Shown here: positions 33,076 through 58,159 of the stretch, piece by piece
Numbering within the stretch: the first letter of the stretch is position 1
Layout of the letters: the number at the start of each line of letters is the position of its first letter
Source of the DNA: an uncultured Acidobacteriota bacterium
GTDB lineage: Bacteria > Acidobacteriota > Vicinamibacteria > Vicinamibacterales > JAFNAJ01
DNA: 64,000 bases
Assembly (NCBI GenBank): GCA_963697285.1
Contig: CAVONI010000003.1
Span: 99,693-163,692 of the forward strand
Direction of reading: 5' to 3'
Translations under genes and position numbers: made by a program
Notes under the pieces: generated by a model
What the model was told of the DNA's origin: nothing
The model's database searches: none
Seen by the model: only the letters and a program-made list of their open reading frames with translations

Positions 33076-33081
33076 CGCGCG

Positions 33082-33714: not shown

Positions 33715-33773
33715 CGGATCTCCCACATCGTTCACGCGCGCGCCAGCATCGGCACGCTGCAGTTTCGCACCGC

Positions 33774-39897: not shown

Positions 39898-41637
39898 ATG
39901 CGTGCTCGTCTTGTCGCCGGCGCCGGGTTCCTGGCTGGAGTGTTGACGCTGACCGTGGCGGTCACCCTGCGGGCACACGCCACGCAGGTTCCGCCCGCGC
40001 CGCCTCCGGAGGCCTCGGCCGCGGTGAAAGCGCCGGTCTACGTCCTGCTGCAGACGACGCTCGACGACGAGATCAACGTGCCCGCCAGCATGGACGGCCT
40101 GCCTCGCACCCTCAAGGTGGTTGACAGGTTGCAGGCGCGCGCCGCCGCCTTCCACCCGGTGTGCCTGCTGCAGTTCAGCGGGGTCGCCGCCAACCTCCTG
40201 GGACGCGAGAACGGTTCGACGCATTCCGTGGATACCGTCAAGGACTACGTCCGGAGAGGCCTGGCCGAAGTCGGCTATGACGGCACCGAGGAACCGACGT
40301 TCGTCGCCCGGCCGCGGCCGAACCTGCGCGGCGCCGATACGCCCGAGAAGCGATGGCTGGCCAGGCTCCAGGCCCACCAGTGGTTCCTGACCGAGTGGAA
40401 GCACACGCTCACGGGGGAACCCGATCCTTCGCAGGTCGGAGGATTCAAGCGCGTGCTGGATGTCTTCGGCCATGTGGCCTTCGCGCGCGGCATCACCTAC
40501 GAGCCCTGGTACGCCGGTGAACTGGTGCATGCGCTTGACGCACTCGGCTCACGTCCGGCACTCGTGGGCTTCCTCGAAAACACGACGTACCCGGCCCGCA
40601 ACCTCGACGGCTACCGCATGGGCGCGCCCATGAACAGCAACCTGCTGGCGGCCGACGAGCGATGTGCCCCCGAGGTGTTCTGGCTCGACACGGCCCTCCG
40701 CGTGTCTGACTACGGCGTCTCCGGCGGGCGTGTGTTCAATGCCTACGAAGGGCCGGAGGCGCTGACGAAGCTGCTCGAGGGCCTCGACCGGTCGAAGCTG
40801 CATGTCGTGCAGGTGCGGCTCGGCCACCCGGCGGTGTACATGAAGCCCGGCTTCGGTGCCCGCAATTACCAGACGCCCCTGGAGCATGCCTACGACAACC
40901 CCAAGGCCCCGAACCTCCCGGCGGCGGCGAAACGTTCGCCGGAGGAACGGGCGGCGATGGAGGCCCAGGAAGACGCGGTACTCGACTGGCTGGTGACGAC
41001 GTTCCTTCCGCAGAACCCCGGCAGTCGATTCGTCTCGGTGAAGCAGCTCGCCAGCCAGGCCGAGTCCGGCCTGTCGGAACCGGTCACGCGCGCGGACCTG
41101 GCGGAGGCGGCGACCTCGTTGATTCGCGAGACCGAGGCGGCGGTTGGGCAGCTTCCGCCGTTCGTTCGCGGCGGCACGCGGTACTTCTCGCTGGCCGACC
41201 TGTTCGGTCTCCTGGTCACGGCGCTGGGCGACACGACCCAGCCCGGTGTCTGGCCCGCGACCTCGCGACCCGTCAGGCTGTTCGGCCCCTTGAAGGTCGA
41301 ACCCGACAACCAGGCGACCGGTGTCCGCATCCCCATCGCGGCGTTGACCCGGGAGTCGGCCGGAATCCGTCGCATGCTGACCGCCGCCGCCTGGACAGCG
41401 GTGCCGCGCAATGCGGTGCCCGCGTCTGTGACCGTCGAGGGAGTGCGCGTGACAGCGGCCCAGTTCCTTCGGATGGCCGCCGAGGCGTACGTGGCGGCAC
41501 CGGGCACGACAGAGGTCGAGTTGAAGTGGACCGGAGACGACAGCGTGTTTGCGACGAGATTCCCGCCGACGAGGCCAATGGCAGACAGGGGAGGCGCCTG
41601 GACGGCGAAGCCGGCAGCCATCCGGTTGGACCAGTAG
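39898..41637 (+). CDS. secreted protein of unknown function (~580 aa)
   Basis: ATG at 39898 with signal peptide MRARLVAGAGFLAGVLTLTVAVTLRAHA. Coding-like composition throughout. No family recognised. Confidence 0.6.
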   Translation: MRARLVAGAGFLAGVLTLTVAVTLRAHATQVPPAPPPEASAAVKAPVYVLLQTTLDDEINVPASMDGLPRTLKVVDRLQARAAAFHPVCLLQFSGVAANLLGRENGSTHSVDTVKDYVRRGLAEVGYDGTEEPTFVARPRPNLRGADTPEKRWLARLQAHQWFLTEWKHTLTGEPDPSQVGGFKRVLDVFGHVAFARGITYEPWYAGELVHALDALGSRPALVGFLENTTYPARNLDGYRMGAPMNSNLLAADERCAPEVFWLDTALRVSDYGVSGGRVFNAYEGPEALTKLLEGLDRSKLHVVQVRLGHPAVYMKPGFGARNYQTPLEHAYDNPKAPNLPAAAKRSPEERAAMEAQEDAVLDWLVTTFLPQNPGSRFVSVKQLASQAESGLSEPVTRADLAEAATSLIRETEAAVGQLPPFVRGGTRYFSLADLFGLLVTALGDTTQPGVWPATSRPVRLFGPLKVEPDNQATGVRIPIAALTRESAGIRRMLTAAAWTAVPRNAVPASVTVEGVRVTAAQFLRMAAEAYVAAPGTTEVELKWTGDDSVFATRFPPTRPMADRGGAWTAKPAAIRLDQ

Positions 41638-41665
41638 TGCGCCGCCGGACGGACGAGCGCATGTC

Positions 41666-44600
41666 ATGGGGAGCAGGTCAGTGAACTCATTCAGAATGAA
41701 GGTCGCGTGCCTGGCGTTGCTCATCGTCAACGCGGGCGCCATCGTGGTGCAGGCGCAGTTGACGACGGGAACGATCACGGGATCCGTGATCGACCCGAGC
41801 GGCCAGCCGGTGGCTGGTGCCATGGTGGTCGCATCGGACGGGCTTCGCGCGCTGAGTCGCACGACCGTCAGCGATGGTGAGGGGCGCTATCGTCTTGCGG
41901 ACCTGCCTCCGGCCCGCTACGACATCTCGGCTGTCGCGCAGGGGTTCGAGCGGGTTGAACGCCCACAGGTGCCCGTGGCGGTCGACAGCGAGCAGCGACT
42001 CGACTTCTACCTGCCCATCGCGGGCATTGTGCAGACCGTCGAGGTGACGGCTGAACTCGCGCCGCTCCAGGTCGAGTCTGCCGACCTGGGCACCATCATC
42101 GATCAGCGGCGCATCCAGTCGCTGCCGCTGAACCGGCGCGACTTCCTGCAACTGGCGATGCTGACGCCCGGCGTCAATCCGCCGGCTGAAGGCTCTGAGC
42201 TGTCGTCGCGCGGATCGTTTGCGATGCACGCCAACGGCGGCCGCGAGGAATACAACAACTACCTGCTCGACGGCGTCGACAACAACGACCCGTACGTCAA
42301 CCGCTACGTCGTGCAGCCTCCGGTCGACAGCATCCAGGAGTTCAAGATCGCCACGAACAGCTACAGCGCCGAGTACGGGCGGAGCGCCGCCGGGCAGGTC
42401 AACGTCATCACGCGGAGCGGCAGCAACCGCTTCGATCTCTCGGCCTACGAGTACTACCGGAACGAGTCCCTGAACGCCCGCAACGCCTTCGACGACTCGG
42501 GCGAGAAGCCGCCGTTCGAACGCAACCAGTTCGGCCTGAGCCTCGGCGGCCCGCTGCTGCGCGACCGCACGTTCGCCTTCGCGAGCTTCGACTTCCTGCG
42601 CGAACGGCGCACCGTGACGCGCCTGTCGACGGTGCCGACCGACCTGCAGCGCGCGGGGAACCTGTCGGAACTCCCAACCACGGTGTATGACCCGTTCACG
42701 AGGCAGCCGTTCGCCGGCAACATCATCCCGCCGAACCGCATCGATCCGATCGCCCGCAACGTGATTGCCCTGTATCCACATGCCAACAGGCCGGGGCTGG
42801 CCGGCAACTACCTGTACAACGCGCCGTCGCGCGAGGACCAGGACCAGGCGACCATCCGTCTCGATCACCGGCTCTCTGCCCGCGATCAGCTGATGCTGCG
42901 CTACAACCACGGCACGGTGGACGCCTTCGACCCGTACGCCGAAGACACCGAAACCGTTCCGGGCTTCGGGAACACGTACGAAGATCCCGCGACCAACGCG
43001 ATGCTGCAGTACCAGCGCGTGTTCGGCGACCGAACGGTCAGCACATCGCGGTTCGGGTTCAACCGGTACGCCCGCAACATCCTCCCGGAGAACTACGGGA
43101 CCGACGTCGGCGCGCTGTGGGGGGTGAACTGGCTCGAGGTGCCCGAACGCGACTACGCGTATCCCGCCATGACGATCGCGGGGTTGTCGAAGGTCGGCGA
43201 CACCGGCACGCTGCCCATCCAGCGAGAGACGACCACGTATCAGTTCAGCCAGACGATCGCGCTGGACCGGGGCCCGCACCTGTGGCGGTTCGGCGGCGAC
43301 ATCCGTCATCAGCGCCTCGACGGCAACCTCGACATCCTCGCGCGCGGGTCGCTGACCTTCTCCGGGCTGCTCTCGGGATCCGGCATGAGCGACCTGCTGC
43401 TCGGGTATCCATCGTTCACGCTGCAGTCGAAGTCCGACAACACGTTGCAGCTCCGCACCACGGCGTACACGGCCTACGTGCAAGACGACTGGAAACTCGC
43501 GCCCGACGTCACGCTCAACCTCGGCGTGCGCTACGAGTACAACACGCCGGCCAGCGACCCGACGAATCACATGTCGAGCTTCGACGCCGCCTCGGGCGCG
43601 GTGGTCCCTGTCGGAACGAACGGCATCTCGGCCTCGGGCGTGCAGGCGGATCACAACAACATCGCACCGCGGATCGGGCTCGCGTGGCAGCCCCGCCCCG
43701 GCCTGGTGGTGCGCGGGGGCTACGGCCTCTACTACGACGGGGGCATGTTCGAGGTGAACTCGGCGCAGTACTTCAACCCACCGCAGTTCACGCTCAGGGC
43801 CTACTTTCCGACGCAGTTCTCGCTGCTGACGCTCAGCAACCCGTTCCCGGCCAACGGCGGGTTCGCGCCTCCGCCATCGCTCAGCACGCTGAGCCCTGAC
43901 CTCGTCACGTCGTTCATGCAGCACTGGAACGCAAGCGTGCAGTACCAGGTCGGGTCGCTCGGGGTGGTGACGGTCAGCTACGCGGGGTCGAAGGGAAACA
44001 ACCTGATCCGTTCGCGCGACCTGAACCAGCCGCCCCCGGGTCCGGGCAGCGTGCAGGCAAGGCGGCCGTATCCCGCCTACGGCAGCATCTTCTACATCGA
44101 GAGCGCCGGCCGCTCCACGTTCAACTCGCTGCAGTTCCTGTTCAGCCGTCCGCTCGCGCGCAGCGTGTCGGTCTGGGCGTCGTACACGCTGTCGGATTCG
44201 AAGGACGACGGCTCGGCATTCCTCGGCACGACCGGGGATCCGAACTTCCCGCAGGACAGCCAGAACATGGCGGCGCAGTGGGGCCCGTCAGGGTTCGACA
44301 TCCGCCATCGTTTCGCGGCGTCGTTCATCTACCAGCTGCCGGCGGGCAACGTCATCACGCGCAACACGGAGCTGCGCGGCATCGTCACCCTCCAGTCGGG
44401 ACAGCCGTTCACGCCGCTGCTGCGCTTCGACAACAGCAACACGGGCAACACCGGCCAGCAGAGCGGGTCTGACCATCCCAACCTGGTCGGCAATCCCGAC
44501 ATCGCCAACCCCGGCCCCGGCGCGTGGTTCGACACCAGCGCGTTCGCCGTGCCGCCGCCGTACACCTTCGGCGATGCGGGGCGCAACATCCTGCGGGGGC

Positions 44601-44812
44601 CCGGGTACTCGTCGGTGGACATGGCGCTTGCCCGGCGCATCCCGCTCGGAGGCAGGCGCGGACTCTGGGTCGAGGCGCAGGTATTCAACCTGTTCAACCG
44701 GGCGAACTACGACCTGCCCGAACTCTACGTGGACGAACCGGCGACCTTCGGCCGGATCTTCTCGGCGAAGGCTCCGCGACAGGTGCAGCTTGCCGTGCGT
44801 GTGAACTTCTAG
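41666..44812 (+). CDS. TonB-dependent-receptor-like outer-membrane protein with carboxypeptidase-regulatory-like domain
   Basis: Signal peptide (MKVACLALLIVNAGAIVVQAQ; start at 41666 or 41696), TGTITGSVIDPSGQPVAGAMVV...YRLADLPPARYDI, a plug-like segment (IDQRRIQSLPLNRRDFLQL) and the barrel terminus ...QLAVRVNF. Confidence 0.85.
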   Translation: MGSRSVNSFRMKVACLALLIVNAGAIVVQAQLTTGTITGSVIDPSGQPVAGAMVVASDGLRALSRTTVSDGEGRYRLADLPPARYDISAVAQGFERVERPQVPVAVDSEQRLDFYLPIAGIVQTVEVTAELAPLQVESADLGTIIDQRRIQSLPLNRRDFLQLAMLTPGVNPPAEGSELSSRGSFAMHANGGREEYNNYLLDGVDNNDPYVNRYVVQPPVDSIQEFKIATNSYSAEYGRSAAGQVNVITRSGSNRFDLSAYEYYRNESLNARNAFDDSGEKPPFERNQFGLSLGGPLLRDRTFAFASFDFLRERRTVTRLSTVPTDLQRAGNLSELPTTVYDPFTRQPFAGNIIPPNRIDPIARNVIALYPHANRPGLAGNYLYNAPSREDQDQATIRLDHRLSARDQLMLRYNHGTVDAFDPYAEDTETVPGFGNTYEDPATNAMLQYQRVFGDRTVSTSRFGFNRYARNILPENYGTDVGALWGVNWLEVPERDYAYPAMTIAGLSKVGDTGTLPIQRETTTYQFSQTIALDRGPHLWRFGGDIRHQRLDGNLDILARGSLTFSGLLSGSGMSDLLLGYPSFTLQSKSDNTLQLRTTAYTAYVQDDWKLAPDVTLNLGVRYEYNTPASDPTNHMSSFDAASGAVVPVGTNGISASGVQADHNNIAPRIGLAWQPRPGLVVRGGYGLYYDGGMFEVNSAQYFNPPQFTLRAYFPTQFSLLTLSNPFPANGGFAPPPSLSTLSPDLVTSFMQHWNASVQYQVGSLGVVTVSYAGSKGNNLIRSRDLNQPPPGPGSVQARRPYPAYGSIFYIESAGRSTFNSLQFLFSRPLARSVSVWASYTLSDSKDDGSAFLGTTGDPNFPQDSQNMAAQWGPSGFDIRHRFAASFIYQLPAGNVITRNTELRGIVTLQSGQPFTPLLRFDNSNTGNTGQQSGSDHPNLVGNPDIANPGPGAWFDTSAFAVPPPYTFGDAGRNILRGPGYSSVDMALARRIPLGGRRGLWVEAQVFNLFNRANYDLPELYVDEPATFGRIFSAKAPRQVQLAVRVNF

Positions 44813-44837
44813 CAGGCCCGTCGACGACGAGCAGGCG

Positions 44838-45818
44838 TCACGCCCCCGACAGGCGGCGGGCGAGCGCGGCGATGTGGGCGGCGTCGGTGCCGCAGCATCC
44901 GCCCAGCACGCGCAGGCCGAAGCGGCTGCGCAGGTCGTACATCCCCGAAGCAAACTCGGCGGCGGCCTCGCCCTCGAGTTCCTCTGCACCATCGAGTTCC
45001 TCGGGACTCTTCGACGACGTGTTGGCCTGCAGGCCGAGGAACCTGCCGGTGCGTAGCGCGCGCATGCCAGCCGGCGTACCGAGCGCGGCGCCCAGTGTCG
45101 AACTGTGGACGCAGTTCACGAGGAAGCCCAGAGGGCGCGGGGTGACCTCGGTGTCGAGGCGTGCCATGGCCTCGTCGAGTGGCGTCTGGTCGAGCAGGCA
45201 GCCCGACGGCCGCACGATGAAACTCACGAGATAGGGGGAGCCCGTCGATGCGAGAGCCTCGGCCATACCGAGCGCCTCGTGGATCTCGGGCATGGTCGAG
45301 GCCATGAGGTAGTCGGCCCCGGCGGCGGCGAGCGCCGAGGCCTGCACCGCATGAAAGACCCGCGCCGCGTCCCGGGTGAGCGCCTCGCGGGGATTGTAGG
45401 CATCGCCCCGGCAACCCATGAGTCCGCCGATGTAGACATGCGCCGCGTAGTCGCCGCAGCGCGACCGGATGTCCTGGAGGAAGCGAACGGCATCGCCGTT
45501 GAGATCGCGCCCGGCGAACGCCGACGCTGCGAGCCGGTCGGGATTGGCCCGCCACGTGGGCGCGAGCGAGAAGAGCGGCAGGCCGTGCGCGCGCCCGATC
45601 TCGATGTACTCGCGGTAGATCTGCTGCAGCAGCGCGCGGCCGGCGTCGCCGTAGACCAGCGGCGCGTTCATGAGGAGTGGGTCGAGCAGCGTCGGCGCCC
45701 CGCGCCGTACGCGCTCGACCACCGCCCCTTCCATCAGCACGGTCACGCCCGCCGACACGAGGTCGGCGACGGACCGCCGCCGCTCGAGACGGCCCGCGTC
45801 GCTGTCGTGCTCGGCCAC
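44838..45818 (-). CDS. homocysteine S-methyltransferase family protein (MmuM/BHMT-like)
   Basis: 326 aa with the C-terminal Zn-ligand motif VLGGCCGTDAAHIAAL and an internal NCVH-type Cys region. Confidence 0.8.
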   Translation of the reverse strand: MAEHDSDAGRLERRRSVADLVSAGVTVLMEGAVVERVRRGAPTLLDPLLMNAPLVYGDAGRALLQQIYREYIEIGRAHGLPLFSLAPTWRANPDRLAASAFAGRDLNGDAVRFLQDIRSRCGDYAAHVYIGGLMGCRGDAYNPREALTRDAARVFHAVQASALAAAGADYLMASTMPEIHEALGMAEALASTGSPYLVSFIVRPSGCLLDQTPLDEAMARLDTEVTPRPLGFLVNCVHSSTLGAALGTPAGMRALRTGRFLGLQANTSSKSPEELDGAEELEGEAAAEFASGMYDLRSRFGLRVLGGCCGTDAAHIAALARRLSGA

Positions 45819-45836
45819 CGCGCCCGCCCGGCCTCT

Positions 45837-47009
45837 CTAGAACACCGTCACCAGGCCGATGCTCGCCCGTGTTCCCTGGTACTCGAATTCGCGGCCCACG
45901 TCGACGGTGAGGCGGACGTTGCGCGCGAGGAGGCGTCCCACGGTCGCCGACAGGCTGTGGTACTTCGCGTTCGGATCGTCTGACGTCACCTTGTTGTAGA
46001 GACCCGCGATCGACCACGGCGCGTCGGCGCCGAGCGGCAGGTAGATCAACTCCGCGAAGCCGCCTCGCGTCTCCCAGTCCGACCCGTCGGCAGTCGCCAG
46101 GAACTCGGGGTTGTCGTCGCGCCGCTCGAGGTACTGCAGGTTGAGCTGCAGCCGGTCGCTGAAATCAATCACCGCGTCTGGCCCGATGTAGTAGGTGCGG
46201 TTGCGGACCTCGCCTTCTCCCGCTTCCTTCCCGTAGTAGCCGAACAGGCCGACCCGCCCCTTCGTGAAGGACTTCGCCAGGCGGTAGGCGACGTTCTTCA
46301 GGTTGTCGCGGTCGAAGTTGTCGAACTCGTCGGCCATCTCGATGCCGTTGCCGTTGACGACCTGGAGCACCGACTCGACGCCGCCGGGGAAGTCCCAGCT
46401 GGCGATCAGGCCGCGATCGTACGTGAGATCGACGGCAGCCGCTCCGACATGTGTCTTGAAGATCTGGTAGTCGAAGCGCTCGAGGCGCAGTTCGCGCTTG
46501 AAGAGCGGGTCGCACACCTGGAACTGGCCGACCGTCAGGTTGATCGGAAGCTTGAAGGGCTTGTTGATCTGGATCCAGGCGTCTTCGAGGCCACCGTCGT
46601 GGCCCTTCTCGATGATGTAGTAGAAGTAGTAGGAAAACTGCTTGTTGATCTGCCCACCCGACAGGACCTTGAACACCCAGGGGAACTGCCCGTCGACGTT
46701 CAGTTGCTCGTTCTCGGCGAACGAGGCGTAGCCCTCGAGCCGGATGGCCAGCGGCACGTCGCGCATCAGGCTCAGCGTGGGATCGCCCACATCGAGTGTC
46801 GCGCGTGTCGGTTCCTGGCTGGGATCTTCGAGCCTGAAGCCACGGGCCGCGAAGTCTTCGCCGAACGGCTTGAGCCGTGGCGCCGGCGCGTGGCACGTCG
46901 AGCACGAGAACTGGTACTTGCGGGCGAACGCGGGGATGGCTTCAGACGACGCGACCTGGAGCAGCAGGCACGTCGCCGTGATCAGTGCGATCGAGATTGA
47001 TCGGGACAT
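45837..47009 (-). CDS. outer-membrane beta-barrel protein with N-terminal single CXXCH heme motif (cytochrome-porin fusion architecture)
   Basis: Start MSRSISIALITATCLLLQVASSEA at 47009. The mature N-terminus is IPAFARKYQFSCSTCHAP (one CXXCH). About 340 aa of alternating beta-strand-like sequence ends in ...IGLVTVF. The upstream part of the 717-aa track ORF is out-of-gene junk. Confidence 0.7.
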   Translation of the reverse strand: MSRSISIALITATCLLLQVASSEAIPAFARKYQFSCSTCHAPAPRLKPFGEDFAARGFRLEDPSQEPTRATLDVGDPTLSLMRDVPLAIRLEGYASFAENEQLNVDGQFPWVFKVLSGGQINKQFSYYFYYIIEKGHDGGLEDAWIQINKPFKLPINLTVGQFQVCDPLFKRELRLERFDYQIFKTHVGAAAVDLTYDRGLIASWDFPGGVESVLQVVNGNGIEMADEFDNFDRDNLKNVAYRLAKSFTKGRVGLFGYYGKEAGEGEVRNRTYYIGPDAVIDFSDRLQLNLQYLERRDDNPEFLATADGSDWETRGGFAELIYLPLGADAPWSIAGLYNKVTSDDPNAKYHSLSATVGRLLARNVRLTVDVGREFEYQGTRASIGLVTVF

Positions 47010-47017
47010 GATCGTCC

Positions 47018-48397
47018 TCAGGGCAGGATGGTGAAGGTCGTCGAATGGCTGTTCACCTTCACGGGTTCGGACTCTTCGCGCGGCACCTTCATGTATTCGG
47101 CCACCGATGACACGAGCCGCGAGTAGTAGACGTCGGCCGTCACCACGACAGGGCCGGCCGGCAGGGTGCCCGGCAACCTCCAGGTGTAGGTTTCGCTGCG
47201 GGCCGCGAGCGGTGCGAGCCGATAGTCGGGCCCGAAGCTCGCGGTGGACCACTGCATGATGGTCATGCGGCCCTTCGGATCCAGGTACGGCAGGCGGAAG
47301 ATCCGATCGCCCGCCGGGACCTCGCCGTCGCGCTTGAGACCGGGGAAGTCGGCGATGCCTTTCACCTCGCCGATGTCCTGGTATGCCAGGACGTCTGACG
47401 CGATGGTGAACTCCTCGCCGGCGAAGCCCTTCTTGTCGACCGGCAGGTGATAGACCTGCCCCTTTGCGTCCTTCGCGGTCACGTGGGCCCACAGGACGCG
47501 CTCCTCGGCCGATCCGCTGGGCACCTTGTGGCCGGCCTTGGCATTGACGAAGACGGCGGTGAGCTTCATCGTCTCTCCGGGCTCGGCCTCGCGGACGTCG
47601 GGATGGATGCGCACCTCGATCACGCCCGACAGCTTGCCGGGGTCGTGGGCGCCGTGGAACAGGTGCTGCCGCATGTCGGGCAGTTCCGATCCCATCAGGG
47701 CGCTGCGGGCCGCGGCCGGCGGCATGTGGCAGTCCTGGCAGACGATGCCGGCCTTGCCGTGCGGGCCTTCCTTCCACTCGAGGTGCGTGGCCTTGACCCA
47801 CGTGCCGTACGGGCTCTTCTCGTTGTGGCACGTGCCGCAGAACTCGGCGGTCTTCAGGAAGTCGTTCTTCTGCGTGACGTGGTGCGGGCTCACCACACCG
47901 TCGCGTGGTCCCTGCTTGGTCTTGCCAGGCACCGAGATCCAGTTGAAGTTGAACGGCGTGTCGCCCTCGAACCCCGTGACCGTGTGGCACAGGTCACAGG
48001 TCACCGACTCGTTGGCGCGGCTGTTCGCCGAAGGCAGCGGCGGCGGGACGTCGCCGGCGAGGAAGGCGATGGGCGCATGGCACCCGTTGCACCCGGCCTT
48101 GACGCCCGCGACTTTCGGTTCCTTGTCGGCGTGCGGGACGGCAAGCCCGAAGTACTCGATCTCGTCCCAGTGGTGCGTGTAGGCCTGCGACATCATCGCC
48201 TGCTCGTGCTGCCGCGCGATGTCCTTGTGGCAGGCGGCACAGGCGGCGGGTCGCTCGTACTTGTCGTACGTCTGTGTGCCGAGGGCAGCGTCGCCTGCCT
48301 TGGGCGGACTCTGTGTCGAGACGATTGCGACGCCGAGCAGGAGGAGCAGGATTGCGGTGAAGGCAGTAGCGATGACGGCAGGGACCCTTGGAAGCAT
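47018..48397 (-). CDS. pentaheme c-type cytochrome (membrane-anchored or periplasmic)
   Basis: Five CXXCH motifs (CAACH, CNGCH, CDLCH, CGTCH, CQDCH). N-terminal TM/signal segment, RBS GGGAGG before the ATG at 48397, and a ~200-aa non-heme C-terminal domain. Confidence 0.85.
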   Translation of the reverse strand: MLPRVPAVIATAFTAILLLLLGVAIVSTQSPPKAGDAALGTQTYDKYERPAACAACHKDIARQHEQAMMSQAYTHHWDEIEYFGLAVPHADKEPKVAGVKAGCNGCHAPIAFLAGDVPPPLPSANSRANESVTCDLCHTVTGFEGDTPFNFNWISVPGKTKQGPRDGVVSPHHVTQKNDFLKTAEFCGTCHNEKSPYGTWVKATHLEWKEGPHGKAGIVCQDCHMPPAAARSALMGSELPDMRQHLFHGAHDPGKLSGVIEVRIHPDVREAEPGETMKLTAVFVNAKAGHKVPSGSAEERVLWAHVTAKDAKGQVYHLPVDKKGFAGEEFTIASDVLAYQDIGEVKGIADFPGLKRDGEVPAGDRIFRLPYLDPKGRMTIMQWSTASFGPDYRLAPLAARSETYTWRLPGTLPAGPVVVTADVYYSRLVSSVAEYMKVPREESEPVKVNSHSTTFTILP

Positions 48398-48519
48398 GCG
48401 ACCTCCCAGATCGGTCGCATTCTACTCCTGTCCTGCCGAGCTGGCGGCGCTGCGCAGGAGGACCATCGGCTCGCCTGGTCCGCCGATGTCTCCTGCGCCC
48501 ACGCGCGGTGACGATCGGT

Positions 48520-49092
48520 CTACGGCCGCCGCATCTGCTGTGCGCGTTCGGTCGAGGGCGGCACGATGCCCTTGAGCCGCAGGTAGACCACGCCCGTGCC
48601 GTAGATCTCGTTGCCGTGCGCGATGAGGCCGGCCAGGGCCGCACCCCGCGCGATCTCGTTCTGCCCCTGCTTGATCAATTGCAGGGCGCTTTCATCGGTC
48701 AATGCCGCAAAGGCGTCGTCGCAGAACGCGAACGAATCGGCCAACACCTTCACGAACTCGGCCTTCGTGGTCTTCTTCTCGTTGTCGTTGCCCTGGTTCG
48801 GGTTCGGCACGCCCTTCACCGCCGAACAGGCGTTGAACTGGCTGTTGGCGACGTGCCCGAACAGCTGCCCGAAGGCACGCACCTCGGGCGTCGGCTTGAA
48901 GCCGAACTGGTCTTCGGGCATCTTCTCGGCTTCCTGCGTGAGGTTCATCTTGATGTTCGCGTAGTTCCGCTGCAGGCCGGCCGCCAGCGAGAGCTTCAGG
49001 GGAGCCGCCGGCGGCGTGGCCGGGGGCGTCTGGGCAAAGGCCACGGTGGCAGACAACAGCACTCCGGACACGAGACACGTCGTTCGGGTCAT
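48520..49092 (-). CDS. DinB-family protein with signal peptide
   Basis: AAGGAG RBS before the ATG at 49092. Signal peptide ending AFAQ. DinB-like helix-bundle motifs including FGQLFGHVANS and LIAHGNEIYG (His triad candidates). Confidence 0.75.
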   Translation of the reverse strand: MTRTTCLVSGVLLSATVAFAQTPPATPPAAPLKLSLAAGLQRNYANIKMNLTQEAEKMPEDQFGFKPTPEVRAFGQLFGHVANSQFNACSAVKGVPNPNQGNDNEKKTTKAEFVKVLADSFAFCDDAFAALTDESALQLIKQGQNEIARGAALAGLIAHGNEIYGTGVVYLRLKGIVPPSTERAQQMRRP

Positions 49093-49188
49093 TCCTGTCG
49101 CTCCTTGAAAGCACACACGGGGAAGACGTGACTCTACCGCCGCAGCGACCGCAACGCAATACGGCTGCGCGAGGTGGCGCGGGGCGCC

Positions 49189-50626
49189 TTACAGCTCGTA
49201 CTTCTTCGCGTAGTACCCTGAACGACCGGAACGACATGCCGAGGAGTTCGGCGGCGCGGGTGCGCACGCCGTGGGCGCGCTTCAGCGCCTCGGCGAGGTA
49301 CTCGCGTTCGATCGACTGCACGTGCTGCTCGAGATCGAAGCCGCCCTCTGGCAGCGTCGCCAGGGGCGCGGCGTCGCCGCCGTCGAGCCCGGTCGCGGCA
49401 GGCGGGTTCGCGAGCGCGCGCACGTTGTCGGGCAGGCTCTCGACGAGCACCATCGGCGTGGGCTCGAGCGCCACGGCACGCTCCATCGCGTTCTCGAGCT
49501 CACGGATGTTGCCGGGCCAGGCGTACCGCTCGAGGCAGCGCAGCGCCTCGCTCGAGAGGCCGGTAATCCGCTTGCCCATCTTCGCTGCGAACTCCGCGAC
49601 GAAGTGCTCGGCGAGCAGCCGCAGGTCTTCGCCGCGCTCGCGCAGTGGCGGCAGGTGCATGGGGATCACGTTGATCCGGTAGAAGAGGTCTTCGCGGAAG
49701 CGGCCCTCGGCGACGTCCTTCGACAGGTCGCGGTTGGTGGCGGCGATCACGCGGATGTCGGCGTCGACTTCGTCGGTGGCGCCCACGCGGCGGAACTTGC
49801 GTTCCTGCAGCACACGCAGCAGCTTGACCTGCATGAGCGGGCTCATGTCGCCGATCTCGTCGAGGAACACCGTCCCCTCGTGCGCGACCTCGATCAGCCC
49901 CTTCTTGTTGGTCGCCGCGCCGGTGAAGGCGCCCTTCATGTGCCCGAACAGCTCGGATTCGAGCAGCGTCTCGGTCAGCGCGCCGCAGTTGAGGGCCACG
50001 AAGGCCTTGTCGCGCCTGAGCGACTGCCGGTGGATCGCCTGCGCCACCAGTTCCTTGCCTGTCCCCGACTCGCCGGTGACGAGCACGGTGCTCGACGTCG
50101 GCGCGATGGTCTCGATCATGCGGAACAGCGCGATCATCTTCTCGCTGCGCCCGATGATGGCGTCGAACGCGTGCGTCTGGCCGAGCGCACGCTTCAGCCG
50201 CACGTTCTCTTCACGCAGCCGGCGGCGTTCGAGCGCATTGCGGACGGTGATGCGCAACTCCTCGACGTTGAACGGCTTGCTCACGTAGTCGCACGCGCCG
50301 AGCCGCAACGCCTCGACCGCCGTGGCCGTCGACGCAAAGGCGGTCACCACGATGCCCGCCATCTCGGGATCGTGCTGCTTGGCCGCACGCAGCACGTCCA
50401 CACCGCTCATGTCGGGCATGCGGATGTCGGAGATCACCAGGTCGAAGGGCTGTCGTCCGAGGGCCGCGACCGCCTGCTGGCCCGACTCGGCGAGCGTCAC
50501 GTCGTACCCCTCGCGGCGCAGCATGATGAACAGCAGCTCGCGCATCGAGCGCTCGTCGTCCACGACGAGCACGCGGGGTGCGGCGACGGGAATGTCGGTG
50601 GCGGATTGCGTGAGCGCGGTGGCCAT
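49189..50626 (-). CDS. pilR: sigma-54-dependent response regulator (PilR/NtrC family); the last 9 codons are displaced by one extra base at 49216-49218
   Basis: Receiver domain (VLVVDDERSMRELL...ISDIRMPDMSG), AAA+ domain (GESGTGKELVA, GAFTGA) and Fis-type HTH. After ...LGMSFRSFR the expected YYAKKYEL-stop (TAA at 49189-49191) is in the +1 frame, and the CCC run at 49216-49218 is one base too long. Confidence 0.85.
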
Positions 50627-50637
50627 GAGCGTCGGGG

Positions 50638-52336
50638 TCAGGCAACGTCGGCGGCGACGGCCACCGGCTGCGGGTGCACGAATGGCAGGCGCACCATCAC
50701 GGACGTCCCCTCACCCACCCGCGACGACACACGCACGAGTCCGCCGTAGTCGCTGACCACGCGCTGCACGATCGCCAGGCCCAGGCCCGTGCCTGCCGTG
50801 AAACCGCTCTTGAAGGGCTGGAACAGCGTGTCGCGCGTGGCCTCGTCGATGCCGACGCCTTCGTCTTCGACCGAGATGACGCACGCCGGCGTGAGGCCGA
50901 CGCGCTCGACCTGCAACCGCAGGCGCAACGCGCCGCCGCGCGGCATCGCGCGCAGGCCGTTCGTCGCGAGGTTCCACACGACCTGGCGCATCTGGCCCTC
51001 GTCGGCGTCGTAGCCCGCGTCGACGGGATCGCCGATCACGTCGATGCGGTGATCGGGCCGCCGCTCGGGACTGTTGCGCAGCAAGGCGGCCGTCTCGTCG
51101 AGCACGCGCCGCAGGTCGACACGGTGCAGGTGACGCTTCTGCGGCCGCGCGTACGCGAGGAAGTTGGTGATGGTCTCGTTGAGCCGCTCCGACTCGCGCA
51201 GCACGATGTCCATCAACTGCGCCTGCTCGTCAGACAGCGGCAGTTCGTGGCGCAACAGCTGGATCGAACCGGTCATCGACGCCAGGGGGTTGCGGATTTC
51301 GTGCGCGATGCCGGCGGCCATTTCGCCGATCGCGGCCAGGCGCTTCTGCGCCTGCGCGTCGCGTTCGCGCTGCTTGAGCTCGGTGACGTCCTGGAAGGTG
51401 AAGACGAACCCGCCGTCGCCCTGCACACCCCGCAACGGCGCCGCGCTGATGCCGATCAACAGCCTCGTCCCGTCGTGGCGTGCGAAGTCGTACTCGATGC
51501 GTTGTGCGTCGACCATGCGGGTGGCTGTGCGCCAGCGCGAACTGCAGCACGCCCGGCAACTGCAGCACCTCACACACGTCCCGCCCGCGCGCGTGCGCCG
51601 GGTCGATCCCGGTGATCTGCTGCGCCGCGTGGTTGAAGGTCAGGATCCGCCGGTCGGGGGATGCGGTCGTCAATCCACCCGTGAGCGAGTCGATCACGTG
51701 CTGGTTGAAGGCCTGCAGGTCGGCGATTTCGGTCGACGCCTGCGCGAGCCGGGCATCGGCACTGCGCCAGCCGTCGGCGAGGTGCCCGGTGAGCAGGGCC
51801 ACGGCGAGGAATCCGACACCCGACAGGCAGACGCGGTAGAAGGCCTCTGACGCCGCAGGCAGCGACACGTCCGCGAGGCCATCCGACAGCGGAAGCGCGG
51901 ACGCGGCGCCGGTGTACTGGGCCACGACGATGCCCGCGAACGCCAGGATGCTGAGGCCGGCGACGACGAGGCCGCCGCGCCGGTCCTGGACGATCGCCGC
52001 GCCGACAATGGGCAGCACGTAGAGCCAGGCGAAGAAGCTGTCGAGGCCGCCGGTGGCGACGACGAGCAGCGACACGAGCACGGCGTCGGCCGCCACCTGG
52101 GCGTCGACGATCCACGGCCAGCGACCGACGTAGCGCACCGTCGCGGCGCAGACGCCGGTCACGAAGAACGTGGCGGCGATCAGCACGAAGAACGGATCGA
52201 ACGGCGCGAGCGGCACCGGGCCGTTGATCCTGAGCAGGATGGCCGCCCCCAGCAGGAACGACACCGAGACGGCGCGCAGGCCCGCGAGCCAGAGCAGCTT
52301 CCTGCCGGTCGATGCGGCCTGCGCGCGTTCGTCCAT
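50638..52336 (-). pseudogene. membrane sensor histidine kinase (PilS-like position), frame broken near 51532
   Basis: The N-terminal ~6-TM region plus the PAS start (ORF 51230-52336) and the PAS end plus HisKA/HATPase (AAGIAHEIRNPLASM, NLATNGLRAM, EDEGVGI, GTGLGLAIV; ORF 50638-51573) are in frames offset by one base. Best junction: ...VLQFAL|c51532|RTATRMVDAQRIEY. Confidence 0.75.
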
Positions 52337-52339
52337 GAC

Positions 52340-53561
52340 CTAGGTCAGCTTCGAGATGAGGTCGAAGATCGGCAGGTACATCGAGATCACGATGCCGCCG
52401 ACGACGACGCCCAGGAACGCGATCATGATCGGCTCGAGGAGCGTCAGCAGCCCGGCGACCGCGGTGTCGACCTCCTCTTCGTAGAAGTCGGCGATCTTGG
52501 CGAGCATCATGTCGAGCGCGCCGGTGGTCTCGCCGACGTTGATCATCTGCGTGACCATCGGGGGGAAGACGTTGGTCGCCGACAAGGGCTGCGAGACGGT
52601 CTCGCCGCGCTCGATGCTCGTGCGCGTCGAGATGATCGCGTCCTCGATGATCGCGTTGCCGGCGGTGCGGGCGGTGATCATGAGGCCGTCGAGGATGGGC
52701 ACGCCCGAACTCATGAGCGTCGAGAGCGTGCGGCAGAACCGCGCGACGGCGACCTTGCGCAGGATGATGCCGAGGACGGGCATCTTGAGCAGGGCGCCGT
52801 CGATGACACGCCGGCCGCCCTCGGTGTTGTACGTACTGGCGCAGCGCGAACACCACGCCGACGACGCCCACGATGAGGAGCGGCATGAACGTCACGAGGC
52901 TGTTGCTCAGCCAGATGACGATGCGCGTCGGCAGCGGCAACTGGGCCCCGAGGCCGGCGAACAGCTGCGCGAAGGTCGGGATGACCTTCCACAGGATCAC
53001 GGTCACGACCAGGGCGGCGATCGAGATGACGGCGACGGGGTAGATCATCGCCGACTTCACCTGCGCCTTGAGCTTCACGTTCTTCTCGATGTACGTCGCG
53101 AGGCGCTTGAGGATCGTGTCGAGGATGCCGCCCGCCTCGCCCGCCGCCACCATGTTCGTGTACAGGTTGTCGAACGCGCGCGGGTGGCGCTTCATCGCGT
53201 CGGCCAGCGACGCGCCCGCCTCGACGTCCTCACGGGTCTTGAGAATGACCTGCGCGAAGTACTTGTGCTCCTCCTGCTTGCCGAGGATGTCGAGGCACTG
53301 CACGAGCGGCAGGCCCGCGTCGATCATCACCGAGAACTGCCGCGTGAAGATGGCGAGGTTCTTGGTGGGGATGCCGCGCGCGCGCGCCACGGCCGGCTTG
53401 GCCGGCGCGGCGGTGTCGCGAGCCTTGATCGGCTCGATCTTCGTGACGCGGATCTGCTCGCGCCGCAACTGCGCCATCGCGCCATCGACCGAGTCGGCCT
53501 GGCGTTCGCCGCTGACCGTCTGACCGCTCCGCGTGCGGCCCGAGAATGCGTAGGTTGCCAT
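52340..53561 (-). pseudogene. pilC: type IV pilus platform protein PilC (GspF family), frame broken near 52832
   Basis: Both GspF repeats are present (FTRQFSVMIDAGLPLVQCL... and VARFCRTLSTLMSSGVPILDGL...). Junction: ...FALRQY|c52832|YNTEGGRRVIDGALLKMPVLG. Confidence 0.85.
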
Positions 53562-53582
53562 GCTGCAGTCCTTCTTCGTGCG

Positions 53583-54701: not shown

Positions 54702-54887
54702 CGTGGTTCCCTGGAATGTGCAAGCGCTGCGCCGACGCACGCTGGCCACTCCCCGCCGAGGAATCGACCCGCGGCGCAAGAAGGTGAATGGCTGGGGAGC
54801 CAGGATCCGGCTGGCGATGACGGATCCGTGATCGCGCGGTGGCGTGGGCGCGGAGCCGCACGCTCCGCGGGGCGCCAGCGTGGCCTG

Positions 54888-56675: not shown

Positions 56676-56821
56676 CCGGGTCCTGATCCTCGGTCGTGTG
56701 GGTCGAATCTCGACGCGCCCCGTGCGCCCCACCCGCGCACCGTGTGCGAGAGGCGTGCCGCGAGGCAGGTGACGTCCCACCGCAAAATCGACGGATCCGG
56801 GGCCGGCATGAGCCCGAGTGA

Positions 56822-56848
56822 CGAAAACTGTCGTTTCCGCGGGAAACG
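56822..56848 (-). terminator. small hairpin plus T-run after the OMP gene
   Basis: Minus-strand reading: CGTTTCC-CGC-GGAAACG followed by ACAGTTTTCG, about 47 nt after the stop. Confidence 0.4.
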
Positions 56849-56894
56849 CCAGGTGCCAGGCGCCCCCGAGGAGGCGAGGCGGAATCGGCTGGTG

Positions 56895-57900: not shown

Positions 57901-57929
57901 AAACCCGTCGCGCTGAGTCGAATTGGGCG

Positions 57930-57950
57930 AATTGGGGTCAGACCCCAATT
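57930..57950. promoter_or_regulatory. perfect 21-bp palindrome aattggggtc-a-gaccccaatt
   Basis: Read directly from the sequence. A partial half-site repeat (gaattggg, 57920-57927) precedes it. It lies in the divergent region between the OMP gene and the Yip1 gene. Confidence 0.5.
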
Positions 57951-58159
57951 GCGCCAACTGCGCCGGCGGGGGGTAGGTGACAACTGTGGGAGGCAGGGCC
58001 GGGCGAGCATGCCATCGAGCATAACCCGGCGGCGTGGCCGACCCTGCAGAACAGACCCACGGCTGCGCTCGTATATGGGCGCGTGGGATAGAATCGGGGG
58101 CCAACGTGTCTCGCGCGGGGATCAGCCCCGCGCTCCCCCTCCTCGCGGTTCACGCCACC

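What the first reader, a model, noticed from the sequence alone, without database searches (positions are those of the whole stretch)
45837..48397. Monoheme cytochrome / beta-barrel fusion (Cyc2/Cyt572-like architecture) 8 nt downstream of a pentaheme cytochrome
Seen: a 459-aa protein with five CXXCH motifs and an N-terminal anchor. Eight nucleotides later comes a 390-aa protein whose mature N-terminus carries a single CXXCH (ARKYQFSCSTCH). The rest of that protein has beta-barrel character and ends in an aromatic residue.
Established knowledge: fused cytochrome-porins (Cyc2 of iron oxidisers, Cyt572 of Leptospirillum) have exactly this layout of signal peptide, one heme motif and a porin.
Inference: the pair could form a compact outer-membrane electron conduit for iron or another extracellular redox substrate in an acidobacterium-like organism. 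It sits directly downstream of the pilR end of the type IV pilus cluster, separated only by a DinB gene.
Basis: partly seen in the sequence, partly recalled or inferred. Interest (0 to 1): 0.65.

Follow-up and report, generated by a model that had tools for sequence, protein, structure and literature searches.

The report
Cyc2-type cytochrome-porin with pentaheme partner
Two back-to-back genes encode a five-haem periplasmic cytochrome and an outer-membrane pore with one built-in haem (the known Cyc2 iron-oxidase type); the pair is kept together in hundreds of bacterial species across many phyla, so it is probably a small, unstudied device for moving electrons across the outer membrane.

Summary
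Gene A (47018-48397, minus strand, 459 aa) has five CXXCH motifs. Gene B (45837-47009, minus strand, 390 aa) starts 8 nt later and has one CXXCH, 12 residues after a predicted signal-peptide cut.

B meets every published sequence criterion for the Cyc2 family of fused cytochrome-porins: AxPxFAR[QK][TY], then CXXCH, then PxL, and at least 365 aa. Its model has 16 strands and matches 16-strand porins such as OmpC and OprP. Its haem domain aligns with proteobacterial Cyc2-like proteins (hhalign probability 97%).

A has a secreted pentahaem cap plus an Ig-like stem. Its nearest structure is the Thermochromatium tepidum pentahaem c552 (5ZE8). It lacks the Cys/Sec active site of the related polysulfide reductase MccSep/ExtKL.

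The new point is synteny. In 75 of 79 evaluable loci from Acidobacteriota, Ignavibacteria, Zixibacteria, Calditrichota and Gemmatimonadota, an A homologue lies directly upstream of B (median gap 14 nt). No other neighbour is conserved, and A is always the more conserved gene.

The best reading is a self-contained two-protein outer-membrane redox module. Substrate and direction of electron flow are untested. The B family itself is known: FeGenie surveys already report cyc2 in Aminicenantes, and Cyc2-type iron-oxidation genes in Ignavibacteriales and Zixibacteria. I did not find the pairing described. The adjacency to the pilus cluster is incidental.

The parts
47018..48397 (-). Gene A: secreted pentahaem c-type cytochrome, 459 aa (haem cap plus Ig-like beta-sandwich stem)
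   Evidence: Five CXXCH motifs; all 10 Cys lie in them. Pfam multihaem hits. AF2 model pLDDT 78. Foldseek top hit 5ZE8, E 4e-17, TM 0.55/0.65. Profile against the PDB gives 5ZE8 at E 2.5e-10.
48311..48397 (-). A: N-terminal signal peptide (about residues 1-29); the cleavage site is not computed
   Evidence: Hydrophobic stretch VIATAFTAILLLLLGVAIV. Homologues in other phyla have classical SPase-I signal peptides without a lipobox, and conservation starts at ...KAGD(E/A)ALG.
47633..48280 (-). A: haem-binding cap (about residues 40-255) carrying haems 1-5
   Evidence: CXXCH at 53, 103, 134, 187 and 220. Invariant extra His at H75, H173, H245, H248 and H251 in 71 cross-phylum homologues.
47021..47632 (-). 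A: C-terminal Ig-like beta-sandwich domain (about residues 256-459)
   Evidence: DSSP strands 260-457, pLDDT mostly 80-97. Same cap-plus-stem layout as 5ZE8 and MccSep. Conserved H290, H305 and H317.
48403..48408 (-). Shine-Dalgarno GGGAGG, 5 nt upstream of A's ATG
   Evidence: Read directly from the sequence.
47010..47017 (-). 8-nt A-B intergenic spacer; a GAGGA ribosome-binding site overlaps A's stop codon
   Evidence: The median A-stop to B-start gap is 14 nt in 70 related loci, and the gap is again 8 nt in relative L084.
45837..47009 (-). Gene B: Cyc2-family fused monohaem cytochrome-porin, 390 aa
46938..47009 (-). B: signal peptide (residues 1-24; predicted cut SEA|IP)
   Evidence: The N-terminal region is variable and hydrophobic in homologues, and conservation begins at A24-I25-P26.
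46872..46940 (-). B: Cyc2 signature A24-I-P-A-F-A-R-K-Y32 / C36STCH40 / P44-R-L46
   Evidence: Matches the AxPxFAR[Q/K][T/Y] + CXXCH + PxL motif of PMC8406198. The spacing is the same as in Caballeronia and Ralstonia Cyc2-like proteins. hhalign probability 97%, E 6e-11.
45840..46748 (-). B: 16-strand beta-barrel (residues 88-390) ending in the aromatic C-terminal residue F390
   Evidence: 16 DSSP strands. Foldseek hits OmpC, OmpU and OprP 2o4v at E about 1e-10, TM 0.5-0.66.

Best explanation
A and B form a self-contained, co-transcribed (probably translationally coupled) outer-membrane redox module. B is a Cyc2-family protein. A signal peptide is cleaved, leaving a roughly 60-residue monohaem domain fused to a 16-strand outer-membrane porin. 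[quoted passage not shown] Electrons pass between A's five-haem chain and B's single haem, which sits at or in the periplasmic mouth of a pore too narrow to hold a multihaem protein. B's haem therefore reacts with a small dissolved redox species that enters the pore; by analogy with characterised Cyc2 proteins this is most likely iron. What is shown: the architecture, family membership by motif and fold, and the tight cross-phylum pairing. What is inferred: physical contact between A and B, the substrate, and the direction of flow. My split is about 0.65 that it is such a conduit. Within that I lean slightly (about 55:45) towards electron export, meaning reduction of soluble or chelated Fe(III) or similar small oxidants by organotrophs, rather than classical Fe(II) oxidation.
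For: B meets the Cyc2 criteria: motif, single CXXCH, PxL and 390 aa. It has a 16-strand model and porin fold matches, and its haem domain is homologous to proteobacterial Cyc2-like proteins that sit next to HiPIP and c-type cytochrome genes. Pairing: 75 of 80 loci from at least 5 phyla have an A homologue immediately upstream on the same strand. One of the five exceptions is truncated at the contig end. The median gap is 14 nt. No third gene is conserved. The pair recurs with different flanks in an 84%-identical relative. A has a signal peptide and no lipobox, five haems, five invariant extra His in the haem cap (enough for bis-His ligation of all five haems), and no Cys outside the haem motifs, so it looks like an electron carrier rather than a Cys/Sec enzyme. 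[quoted passage not shown] The usual partners of Fe(II)-oxidising Cyc2 are dihaem c4 cytochromes, HiPIP or rusticyanin; that these are high-potential carriers is my own knowledge, not a tool result. Many host lineages are anaerobic organotrophs (my own knowledge).
Against: There is no experimental datum for any member of this clade. Every biochemically tested Cyc2 (A. ferrooxidans Cyc2, Leptospirillum Cyt572, Cyc2 PV-1) is an Fe(II) oxidase, which argues against the export lean. The haem domain of B is modelled at low confidence (pLDDT 32-50 for residues 20-87), so its position relative to the pore is not established. No A-B complex could be modelled. Haem potentials are unknown. Invariant Met residues (M68, M69, M225) and extra conserved His in the Ig-like domain leave room for high-potential or catalytic haems in A. 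A is always more conserved than B (62% against 44% median identity), which fits an enzyme as well as a carrier with several partners.
Confidence: 0.62

Rival explanations
1. A is a periplasmic multihaem enzyme, not a mere carrier, and B is the outer-membrane entry or exit channel for its small substrate. B's haem would be accessory, for example a gate, a sensor or a second electron input. The precedent is the related pentahaem-plus-Ig-like protein MccSep (ExtKL). It was long assumed to be part of a porin-cytochrome conduit (a recollection of my own, not checked in a paper here) and turned out to be a periplasmic polysulfide reductase.
For: A shares the cap-plus-stem architecture of 5ZE8 and MccSep. 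A is under stronger constraint than B in 71 of 71 loci. Conserved His residues in the Ig-like domain (H290, H305, H317) and invariant Met residues could build a special haem site. The haem 1 motif switches between CXXCH and CX3CH across phyla.
Against: A has no Cys or Sec outside the haem motifs and no in-frame TGA, so both catalytic residues of MccSep (C239, U325) are absent. The NCBIfam ExtKL score is 36 bits against a cut-off of 250, and NrfA models score far below their cut-offs; A has no CXXCK. Five invariant extra His in the cap suffice for all-bis-His ligation. The strict conservation of B's haem motif is hard to explain if B were only a channel.
Confidence: 0.2
2. The module is a canonical Cyc2 Fe(II) oxidase system with electrons flowing inwards. 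It would be used for lithotrophic energy gain, nitrate-dependent Fe(II) oxidation or Fe(II) detoxification, with A replacing Cyc1, HiPIP or rusticyanin as the periplasmic acceptor. This is the direction-specific alternative inside the conduit model.
For: All characterised family members oxidise Fe(II). A similarity-network study links Leptospirillum Cyt572 to a dense cluster of Acidobacteria and Nitrospira homologues. FeGenie-based surveys score cyc2 genes in Aminicenantes, and Cyc2-type genes in Ignavibacteriales and Zixibacteria, as iron-oxidation markers.
Against: None of the host lineages is an established iron oxidiser. No oxidase, bc1/ACIII or carbon-fixation genes accompany the pair. 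A bis-His pentahaem acceptor would usually be too low in potential to take electrons from a +200 mV Cyc2 haem; this is established knowledge of multihaem cytochromes, not tested here. Keffer et al. themselves call the function of Cluster 3 homologues 'most uncertain'.
Confidence: 0.28
3. The adjacency is incidental, or B is an ordinary porin whose CXXCH does not bind haem.
For: Pfam finds only a weak Phenol_MetA_deg match for B, and NCBIfam finds nothing. No cytochrome c maturation genes lie in the window.
Against: Synteny holds in 95% of evaluable loci across phyla, with short or overlapping gaps. C36, C39, H40, P44 and the upstream motif are 97-100% conserved, while the barrel diverges. A itself needs a cytochrome c maturation system, so the genome must encode one elsewhere.
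Confidence: 0.03

Closest known systems
Cyc2 family of fused cytochrome-porins (A. ferrooxidans Cyc2, Mariprofundus Cyc2 PV-1, Leptospirillum Cyt572; Keffer et al. 2021, PMC8406198; McAllister et al. 2020, PMC7029218)
   Same: Signal peptide, AxPxFAR[QK][TY]-x3-CXXCH-x3-PxL haem domain, single haem, a 16-strand porin with OprP/OmpC-like fold, a poorly conserved barrel, and length above 365 aa.
   Different: B is short (390 aa, against the at least 400 aa of most confirmed Cyc2 homologues). Its hosts are organotrophic Acidobacteriota, Ignavibacteria, Zixibacteria and relatives rather than known iron oxidisers. Its fixed neighbour is a pentahaem cap-plus-Ig-like cytochrome rather than the Cyc1-type cytochrome, HiPIP or cox genes seen at other Cyc2 loci. 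Cluster assignment (1, 2 or 3) was not tested here; the literature suggests Cluster 3, whose function is called uncertain.
Thermochromatium tepidum pentahaem cytochrome c552 (PDB 5ZE8)
   Same: It is the closest solved structure to A: five c-haems in an alpha-helical cap plus a C-terminal beta-sandwich (Foldseek E 4e-17; profile E 2.5e-10).
   Different: Only about 20% identity. Its physiological role is unknown, as far as I know. Whether it has any porin-cytochrome partner was not examined.
MccSep / ExtKL (GSU2937-2936), the selenocysteine pentahaem polysulfide reductase of Geobacter sulfurreducens (bioRxiv 10.1101/2025.11.18.688581)
   Same: Periplasmic, five haems, and the same cap-plus-Ig-like stem layout. 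It is encoded in the ext cluster; that this cluster also encodes an outer-membrane porin (ExtI) is my own knowledge, not verified here.
   Different: A lacks the haem-ligating Cys (C239) and the Sec/Cys (U325) that define MccSep. It scores 36 bits against the family cut-off of 250. Its partner porin carries its own haem.
Porin-cytochrome complexes MtrCAB, MtoAB/PioAB and Geobacter Omb/Oma/Omc
   Same: A periplasmic multihaem cytochrome and an outer-membrane beta-barrel are encoded side by side, with the presumed function of moving electrons across the outer membrane.
   Different: Those barrels have 20-26 strands and sheathe the multihaem protein. B has 16 strands, cannot hold A, and carries its own haem.

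Membership tests
Cyc2 fused cytochrome-porin family (criteria of Keffer et al. 2021 / FeGenie) | N-terminal signal peptide | tested here: met
   Judged by inspection and alignment, since no SignalP was available. The sequence MSRSISIALITATCLLLQVASSEA|IP has n-, h- and c-regions and small residues at positions -3 and -1. This region varies in homologues, and conservation starts at A24/I25/P26.
Cyc2 fused cytochrome-porin family | Exactly one CXXCH, near the N-terminus of the mature protein | tested here: met
   C36STCH40 is the only such motif. It is conserved in 119 of 120 close homologues and in all but two of the 50 representative homologues of at least 340 aa.
Cyc2 fused cytochrome-porin family | AXPXFAR[Q/K][T/Y] motif upstream of the CXXCH | tested here: met
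   A24-I-P-A-F-A-R-K-Y32. P26 is 100%, F28 97% and R30 97% conserved. The paper says the motif lies '5 amino acids upstream', whereas I count 3 residues between Y32 and C36. The same 3-residue spacing is seen in Caballeronia and Ralstonia Cyc2-like proteins, so this is probably a difference in counting convention.
Cyc2 fused cytochrome-porin family | PXL motif just downstream of the CXXCH | tested here: met
   P44-R-L46. P44 is 100% and L46 97% conserved.
Cyc2 fused cytochrome-porin family | Length of at least 365 aa (FeGenie uses 365-375) and a beta-barrel porin of about 16 strands | tested here: met
   390 aa. The AF2 model has 16 strands. Foldseek matches 16-strand porins including OprP 2o4v, the structure Keffer et al. 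also recovered.
Cyc2 fused cytochrome-porin family | Detectable homology to accepted Cyc2 sequences, a FeGenie HMM score, and placement in Cluster 1, 2 or 3 | tested here: inconclusive
   The haem domain aligns to a Caballeronia plasmid Cyc2-like protein (hhalign probability 97%, E 6e-11, 51 columns) and to a Ralstonia one (BLASTP 2e-10). Reference Cyc2, Cyt572 and the FeGenie HMMs were not available, so no tree or cluster assignment was made.
Cyc2 fused cytochrome-porin family | Covalently bound haem, outer-membrane location and Fe(II) oxidase activity | not testable with these tools
   Requires haem staining, cell fractionation and activity assays.
MccSep / ExtKL pentahaem polysulfide reductase (for gene A) | Five haem motifs plus a conserved haem-ligating Cys and a Sec/Cys in the Ig-like domain | tested here: not met
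   Five motifs are present, but there is no Cys outside them and no in-frame UGA. NCBIfam NF040886 scores 36.5 bits against a cut-off of 250.
NrfA cytochrome c nitrite reductase (for gene A) | A CXXCK catalytic haem and a family-level score | tested here: not met
   No CXXCK. Pfam Cytochrom_C552 scores 17 bits against 24, and the NCBIfam NrfA models score 13-15 bits against cut-offs of 595-692.
NapC/NirT tetrahaem quinol dehydrogenases (for gene A; some sources name homologues this way) | A roughly 200-aa membrane-anchored tetrahaem protein matching the whole family model | tested here: not met
   The Pfam Cytochrom_NNT hit covers only residues 172-230 (36 bits). NCBIfam napC_nirT scores 16.9 bits against 310. 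A has five haems plus a 200-aa beta-sandwich.
Pentahaem cap plus Ig-like stem cytochromes (5ZE8 fold; for gene A) | The same overall fold and order of haem motifs | tested here: met
   Foldseek E 4e-17, TM 0.55/0.65 over 470 columns. A profile hit at E 2.5e-10 aligns haem motifs 1-3 and 4-5.
MtrAB-type porin-cytochrome complexes | A barrel of at least 20 strands that sheathes a periplasmic multihaem cytochrome | tested here: not met
   B has 16 strands, and its best structural matches are general 16-strand porins.

The most novel reading that the evidence does not exclude
The A-B cassette would be a distinct, phylum-spanning two-protein extracellular electron-transfer system: a c552/MccSep-fold pentahaem cytochrome plus a Cyc2-type haem-porin. 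It would be used by abundant soil and sediment organotrophs (Vicinamibacteria, Thermoanaerobaculia, Aminicenantes, Ignavibacteria, Zixibacteria, Gemmatimonadota) to exchange electrons with dissolved iron or humics, possibly outwards. That would mean genes now scored as 'iron oxidation' in metagenomes may report the opposite process. A further speculative element concerns the Cyc2 signature motif. It may be the signal-peptidase site plus a cytochrome f-like N-terminus (X-P-x-F-A-R/Q-K/Q) whose free alpha-amino group is the sixth haem ligand. No distal His or Met is conserved in the family, which would fit this.
Probability: 0.3. Interest if true: 0.7.

Novelty: new variant of a known kind. Interest (0 to 1): 0.45.

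Why it matters
Cyc2 is the most widely used marker gene for microbial iron oxidation, and FeGenie-type surveys count hits like B as 'iron oxidisers'. The hosts are mostly organotrophs not known to oxidise iron. The gene is almost always locked to a specific pentahaem cytochrome that canonical Cyc2 systems lack. If the pair is a conduit that runs outwards or both ways, marker-gene inferences about iron cycling in soils, sediments, aquifers and bioreactors would need revising. It would also be a very compact two-gene electron conduit, testable in cultured carriers such as Melioribacter, Ignavibacterium and Rosettibacter. If it is simply one more Fe(II)-oxidising Cyc2 with a different periplasmic partner, the finding is a routine extension of a known family.

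Tried and rejected
- **Sequence search of B against the PDB** gave only chance matches with E above 1. NCBIfam has no model for B. The Pfam Phenol_MetA_deg hit (25 bits, 73 residues) reflects only generic barrel similarity.
- **A as NrfA, NapC/NirT, TorC, DmsE or ExtKL.** All scores are far below the curated cut-offs, and the defining residues are absent.
- **A as an inner-membrane-anchored protein.** Rejected in favour of a cleaved signal peptide after comparing N-termini across phyla.
- **Functional link to the type IV pilus cluster or DinB.** Rejected: no conserved neighbour in 80 loci, and the flanks differ in an 84%-identical relative.
- **A conserved 'third gene'.** One ORF cluster appeared in 57 loci, but the example ORF inspected lies antisense inside gene A, so I judge the cluster to be antisense ORFs within A; it was not checked locus by locus.
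- **Promoter and terminator scan of 44600-49300.** Nothing above shuffle expectation.
- **Cytochrome c maturation genes.** None among the 35 other window ORFs scanned with Pfam, so nothing can be said about the rest of the genome.
- **Literature searches for the A-B pairing and for the distal haem ligand of Cyc2** found no description. The two Melioribacter roseus papers do not mention these genes. This is absence of evidence within an open-access library only.
Caballeronia and Ralstonia plasmid homologues served as proxies.
- **Model coordinates are not exposed**, so I could not check barrel closure geometry, pore size or haem-ligand distances.
I used the preprint instead.
Full report
**1. 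Observation**

Both ORFs exist as described on the minus strand.
- Gene A (47018-48397) encodes 459 aa with CXXCH at residues 53, 103, 134, 187 and 220. These motifs account for all ten cysteines.
- Gene B (45837-47009) encodes 390 aa. Its N-terminus reads MSRSISIALITATCLLLQVASSEA|IPAFARKYQFSCSTCHAPAPRL..., it has one CXXCH (residues 36-40), and it ends in ...GLVTVF.
- A's TGA and B's ATG are 8 nt apart, with a GAGGA ribosome-binding site overlapping the stop codon. A is preceded by GGGAGG.
- The upstream context is as stated: a DinB_2 gene, then a sigma-54 response regulator, a histidine kinase and PilC/PilT/PilB-like genes.
- Downstream, 18 nt after B and on the same strand, lies a homocysteine S-methyltransferase-domain gene (44838-45818).

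**2. What B is**

B has more than 5,000 detectable relatives in the 5.8-billion-protein collection. Where a source names them, they are called 'hypothetical protein'. An exhaustive profile search of 1.84 billion cluster representatives gave 3,265 hits at E of 1e-3 or better, and 168 at 1e-30 or better.

Of the 120 closest relatives, 119 have exactly one CXXCH at the same position; the exception is a truncated fragment. In 68 sequences spanning 50%-identity clusters, the only conserved Cys, His or Met residues are C36, C39 and H40. Conservation starts exactly at the predicted signal-peptidase site and is highest over residues 24-60. The barrel is much more divergent.

Keffer et al. 2021 (PMC8406198) define the Cyc2 family by these features:
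- a signal peptide;
- a single CXXCH;
- an upstream AXPXFAR[Q/K][T/Y] motif 'unique to Cyc2';
- a downstream PXL;
- at least 365 aa;
- a 16-strand porin structurally similar to OprO/OprP.

B has A24-I-P-A-F-A-R-K-Y32, then C36STCH40, then P44-R-L46, and is 390 aa. An AlphaFold2 model built on 53 homologues (mean pLDDT 75, pTM 0.70) shows 16 beta-strands between residues 88 and 389. Foldseek places it among 16-strand general and specific porins: OmpC, OmpU, OmpM1 and OprP 2o4v, at E about 1e-10 and TM 0.5-0.66.

I had no reference Cyc2 sequences, so I used B to find proteobacterial homologues on plasmids. Caballeronia pSBC1_3 and the Ralstonia syzygii megaplasmid encode 446- and 451-aa proteins beginning ...ALPAFARQT-GLA-CVACH-VSF-PEL.... 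The motif spacing is identical to B's. The Caballeronia gene sits between a HiPIP gene and a c-type cytochrome gene, an arrangement like the Cyc2 context reported for Bradyrhizobium. hhalign of the B-family profile against the Caballeronia protein gives 97% probability and E 6e-11. The match covers only the 51-column haem domain, which fits the low barrel conservation that Keffer et al. describe.

B is therefore a Cyc2-family member by every sequence and fold criterion I could test. Cluster assignment was not tested. The literature points towards Cluster 3:
- FeGenie surveys of deep-mine fluids report Cyc2 genes, dominantly Cluster 3 at most sites, and iron-oxidation genes in Ignavibacteriales and Zixibacteria MAGs (PMC8478452).
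- FeGenie-based studies report cyc2 in Aminicenantes (PMC7005843 and PMC7914226).
- A similarity-network study links Cyt572 to a cluster of Acidobacteria and Nitrospira homologues (PMC10654088).

Keffer et al. call the function of Cluster 3 homologues 'most uncertain'.

**3. What A is**

A has more than 2,600 relatives, annotated at best as 'multiheme c-type cytochrome' or, wrongly, as NapC/NirT-like. Pfam and NCBIfam give only partial, sub-threshold multihaem matches. The best NCBIfam hit is ExtKL at 36 bits against a cut-off of 250.

The AF2 model (pLDDT 78) has a helical haem cap (about residues 40-255) and a C-terminal beta-sandwich (about 256-459). Its only strong structural match is the pentahaem cytochrome c552 of Thermochromatium tepidum, 5ZE8 (E 4e-17, TM 0.55/0.65). 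The A-family profile also finds it by sequence (E 2.5e-10).

The same cap-plus-Ig-like-stem layout is described for MccSep/ExtKL of Geobacter. That protein is now shown to be a periplasmic polysulfide reductase whose catalysis needs a haem-ligating Cys239 and Sec325 (bioRxiv 10.1101/2025.11.18.688581). A has no Cys outside its haem motifs and no in-frame UGA, so it lacks that active site.

In 71 cross-phylum homologues, five non-motif His in the cap are conserved: H75, H173, H245 and H251 are invariant and H248 is 97% conserved. That is enough for bis-His ligation of all five haems. Further conserved His (H290, H305, H317) and Met (M68, M69, M225) leave other ligations open.

Homologues have ordinary SPase-I signal peptides and no lipobox, so A is most likely a soluble periplasmic protein rather than membrane-anchored. 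In most other phyla haem 1 is bound by CX3CH (for example CGTSCH) instead of the CAACH seen here.

**4. The pair**

The best 80 loci come from:
- Acidobacteriota (Thermoanaerobaculia, Holophagae, Aminicenantes);
- Ignavibacteria, including Ignavibacterium album and Melioribacter roseus MAGs and the isolate Rosettibacter primus;
- Zixibacteria;
- Calditrichota;
- Gemmatimonadota.

In 75 of the 80 loci an A homologue (E 1e-154 to 1e-245 where full-length) lies immediately upstream of B on the same strand. One of the five exceptions is cut off by a contig end. The other four (three Gemmatimonadota, one Ignavibacteria) have a stand-alone B. The A-stop to B-start distance has a median of 14 nt, and 45 of 70 loci fall between 0 and 19 nt.

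All-against-all clustering of neighbouring ORFs found no third conserved gene. An 84%-identical relative on a 2.7-Mb contig has the same pair with the same 8-nt gap. Its flanks are unrelated: a PIN/PhdYeFM toxin-antitoxin pair and a GT87 glycosyltransferase. The pilus/DinB neighbourhood in this window is therefore incidental.

A is more conserved than B in 71 of 71 loci, with median identity to the window proteins of 62% against 44%.

**5. Mechanism**

*Shown:* a Cyc2-type haem-porin and a secreted pentahaem cytochrome are inherited as a tightly coupled two-gene unit.

*Inferred:* the two proteins interact. A 16-strand barrel cannot sheathe a multihaem protein as the 26-strand MtrB/MtoB barrels do. 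A must therefore dock at the periplasmic face, and B's single haem must react with a small dissolved species entering the pore, as Keffer et al. argue for Fe2+.

Direction is open.
- All tested Cyc2 proteins oxidise Fe(II).
- The hosts here are organotrophs, some from lineages known as iron reducers.
- No oxidase or carbon-fixation genes travel with the pair.
- A bis-His pentahaem partner would normally have a low potential. This is established knowledge and was not measured here.

I put about 0.65 on the conduit model, with a slight lean towards export. I put about 0.2 on the rival in which A is an enzyme and B its substrate channel, which the MccSep precedent makes a serious possibility. About 0.03 goes to incidental adjacency or a B without haem, and the remainder to functions not considered here.

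**6. Comparison and novelty**

The B family is known: it is Cyc2, and marker-gene tools already detect it in these phyla. In the open-access literature available here I did not find the near-obligate pairing with a 5ZE8/MccSep-fold pentahaem cytochrome, nor any experimental work on this clade. I therefore rate it a new variant of a known kind, of moderate interest.

Its practical weight is that these genes are counted as 'iron oxidation' in metagenome surveys of habitats dominated by organotrophs.

**7. Limits**
- There was no SignalP, no reference Cyc2/Cyt572 sequences or FeGenie HMMs, no model coordinates, and no complex prediction.
- The haem domain of B is modelled at low confidence.
- The literature search covers open-access papers only.

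Noticed in passing
window 46872-46940 (-); B-family alignment: No His, Met or Cys other than C36, C39 and H40 is conserved in the B family, so the sixth haem ligand is not an obvious residue. Conservation begins exactly at the predicted signal-peptidase cut. The mature N-terminus I-P-A-F-A-R-K has the same spacing as the cytochrome f N-terminus Y-P-I-F-A-Q-Q (recalled from memory), where the free alpha-amino group ligates the haem. The Cyc2 signature motif might therefore be a cytochrome f-like amine-ligation motif plus the -1 Ala of the cleavage site.
   Followed up: partly
window 48227-48241 (-) compared with loci L011, L019, L034, L040, L070, L072: Haem 1 of the pentahaem cytochrome is bound by a canonical CAACH in this window. 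In all six inspected homologues from other lineages (Ignavibacteria, Aminicenantes, Zixibacteria, Gemmatimonadales) it is a CX3CH motif (CGTSCH, CGSACH or CGTQCH). A simple CXXCH count would score those homologues as tetrahaem.
   Followed up: partly
window 44838-45818 (-): A 326-aa gene with a homocysteine S-methyltransferase domain starts 18 nt after B's stop codon on the same strand and may be co-transcribed. It is not a conserved neighbour of the pair elsewhere.
   Followed up: partly
window 32182-35920 (-): A four-gene cluster encodes an MttB-family methyltransferase (485 aa), a Met_synt_B12 activation-domain protein, a B12-binding corrinoid protein and a second homocysteine S-methyltransferase-domain protein. 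It looks like a corrinoid-dependent quaternary-amine or methylamine demethylation system in an Acidobacteriota-like genome.
   Followed up: no
window 790-3831 (+) and 41549-44812 (+): Two very large outer-membrane proteins (1013 and 1087 aa) combine CarboxypepD_reg and OMP_b-brl_4 domains and are TonB-dependent-receptor-like. The second ends 26 nt from the convergent S-methyltransferase gene.
   Followed up: no
window 49117-58022 (-): The type IV pilus-related block contains a PilR-like sigma-54 regulator, a PilS-like kinase, PilC (T2SSF), two T2SSE ATPases (398 aa, and 630 aa with an MshEN domain) and a TraF_2-domain protein. Only a 147-aa ORF carrying T2SSF was called at 52340-52783, so the PilC region (about 51574-53580) may hold a longer gene or a frameshift.
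   Followed up: no
loci L058, L067, L080 (Gemmatimonadota) and L020 (Ignavibacteria): These four loci carry a B-type haem-porin without the adjacent pentahaem gene. L080 has an ORF with 8 haem-type motifs (counted as C-x(2-4)-CH) about 4 kb upstream instead. They may represent a different partner arrangement.
   Followed up: partly
proteins P0361, P0365, P0387: These are larger relatives (479-543 aa) that share the haem domain (AVPAFARKY..SC.RCH.AFP.LNAYG..FKLRGY) but match B only over residues about 8-210. They seem to be a separate Cyc2-like subgroup with a bigger barrel.
   Followed up: no
window 17194-19719 (+), 25042-26262 (-), 27014-28798 (-), 58895-60274 (+), 61512-62786 (+): Several MacB/FtsX-type permease genes and HlyD-type adaptor genes are scattered through the window. 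There is also a TPR-containing Ser/Thr kinase at 20173-23010.
   Followed up: no
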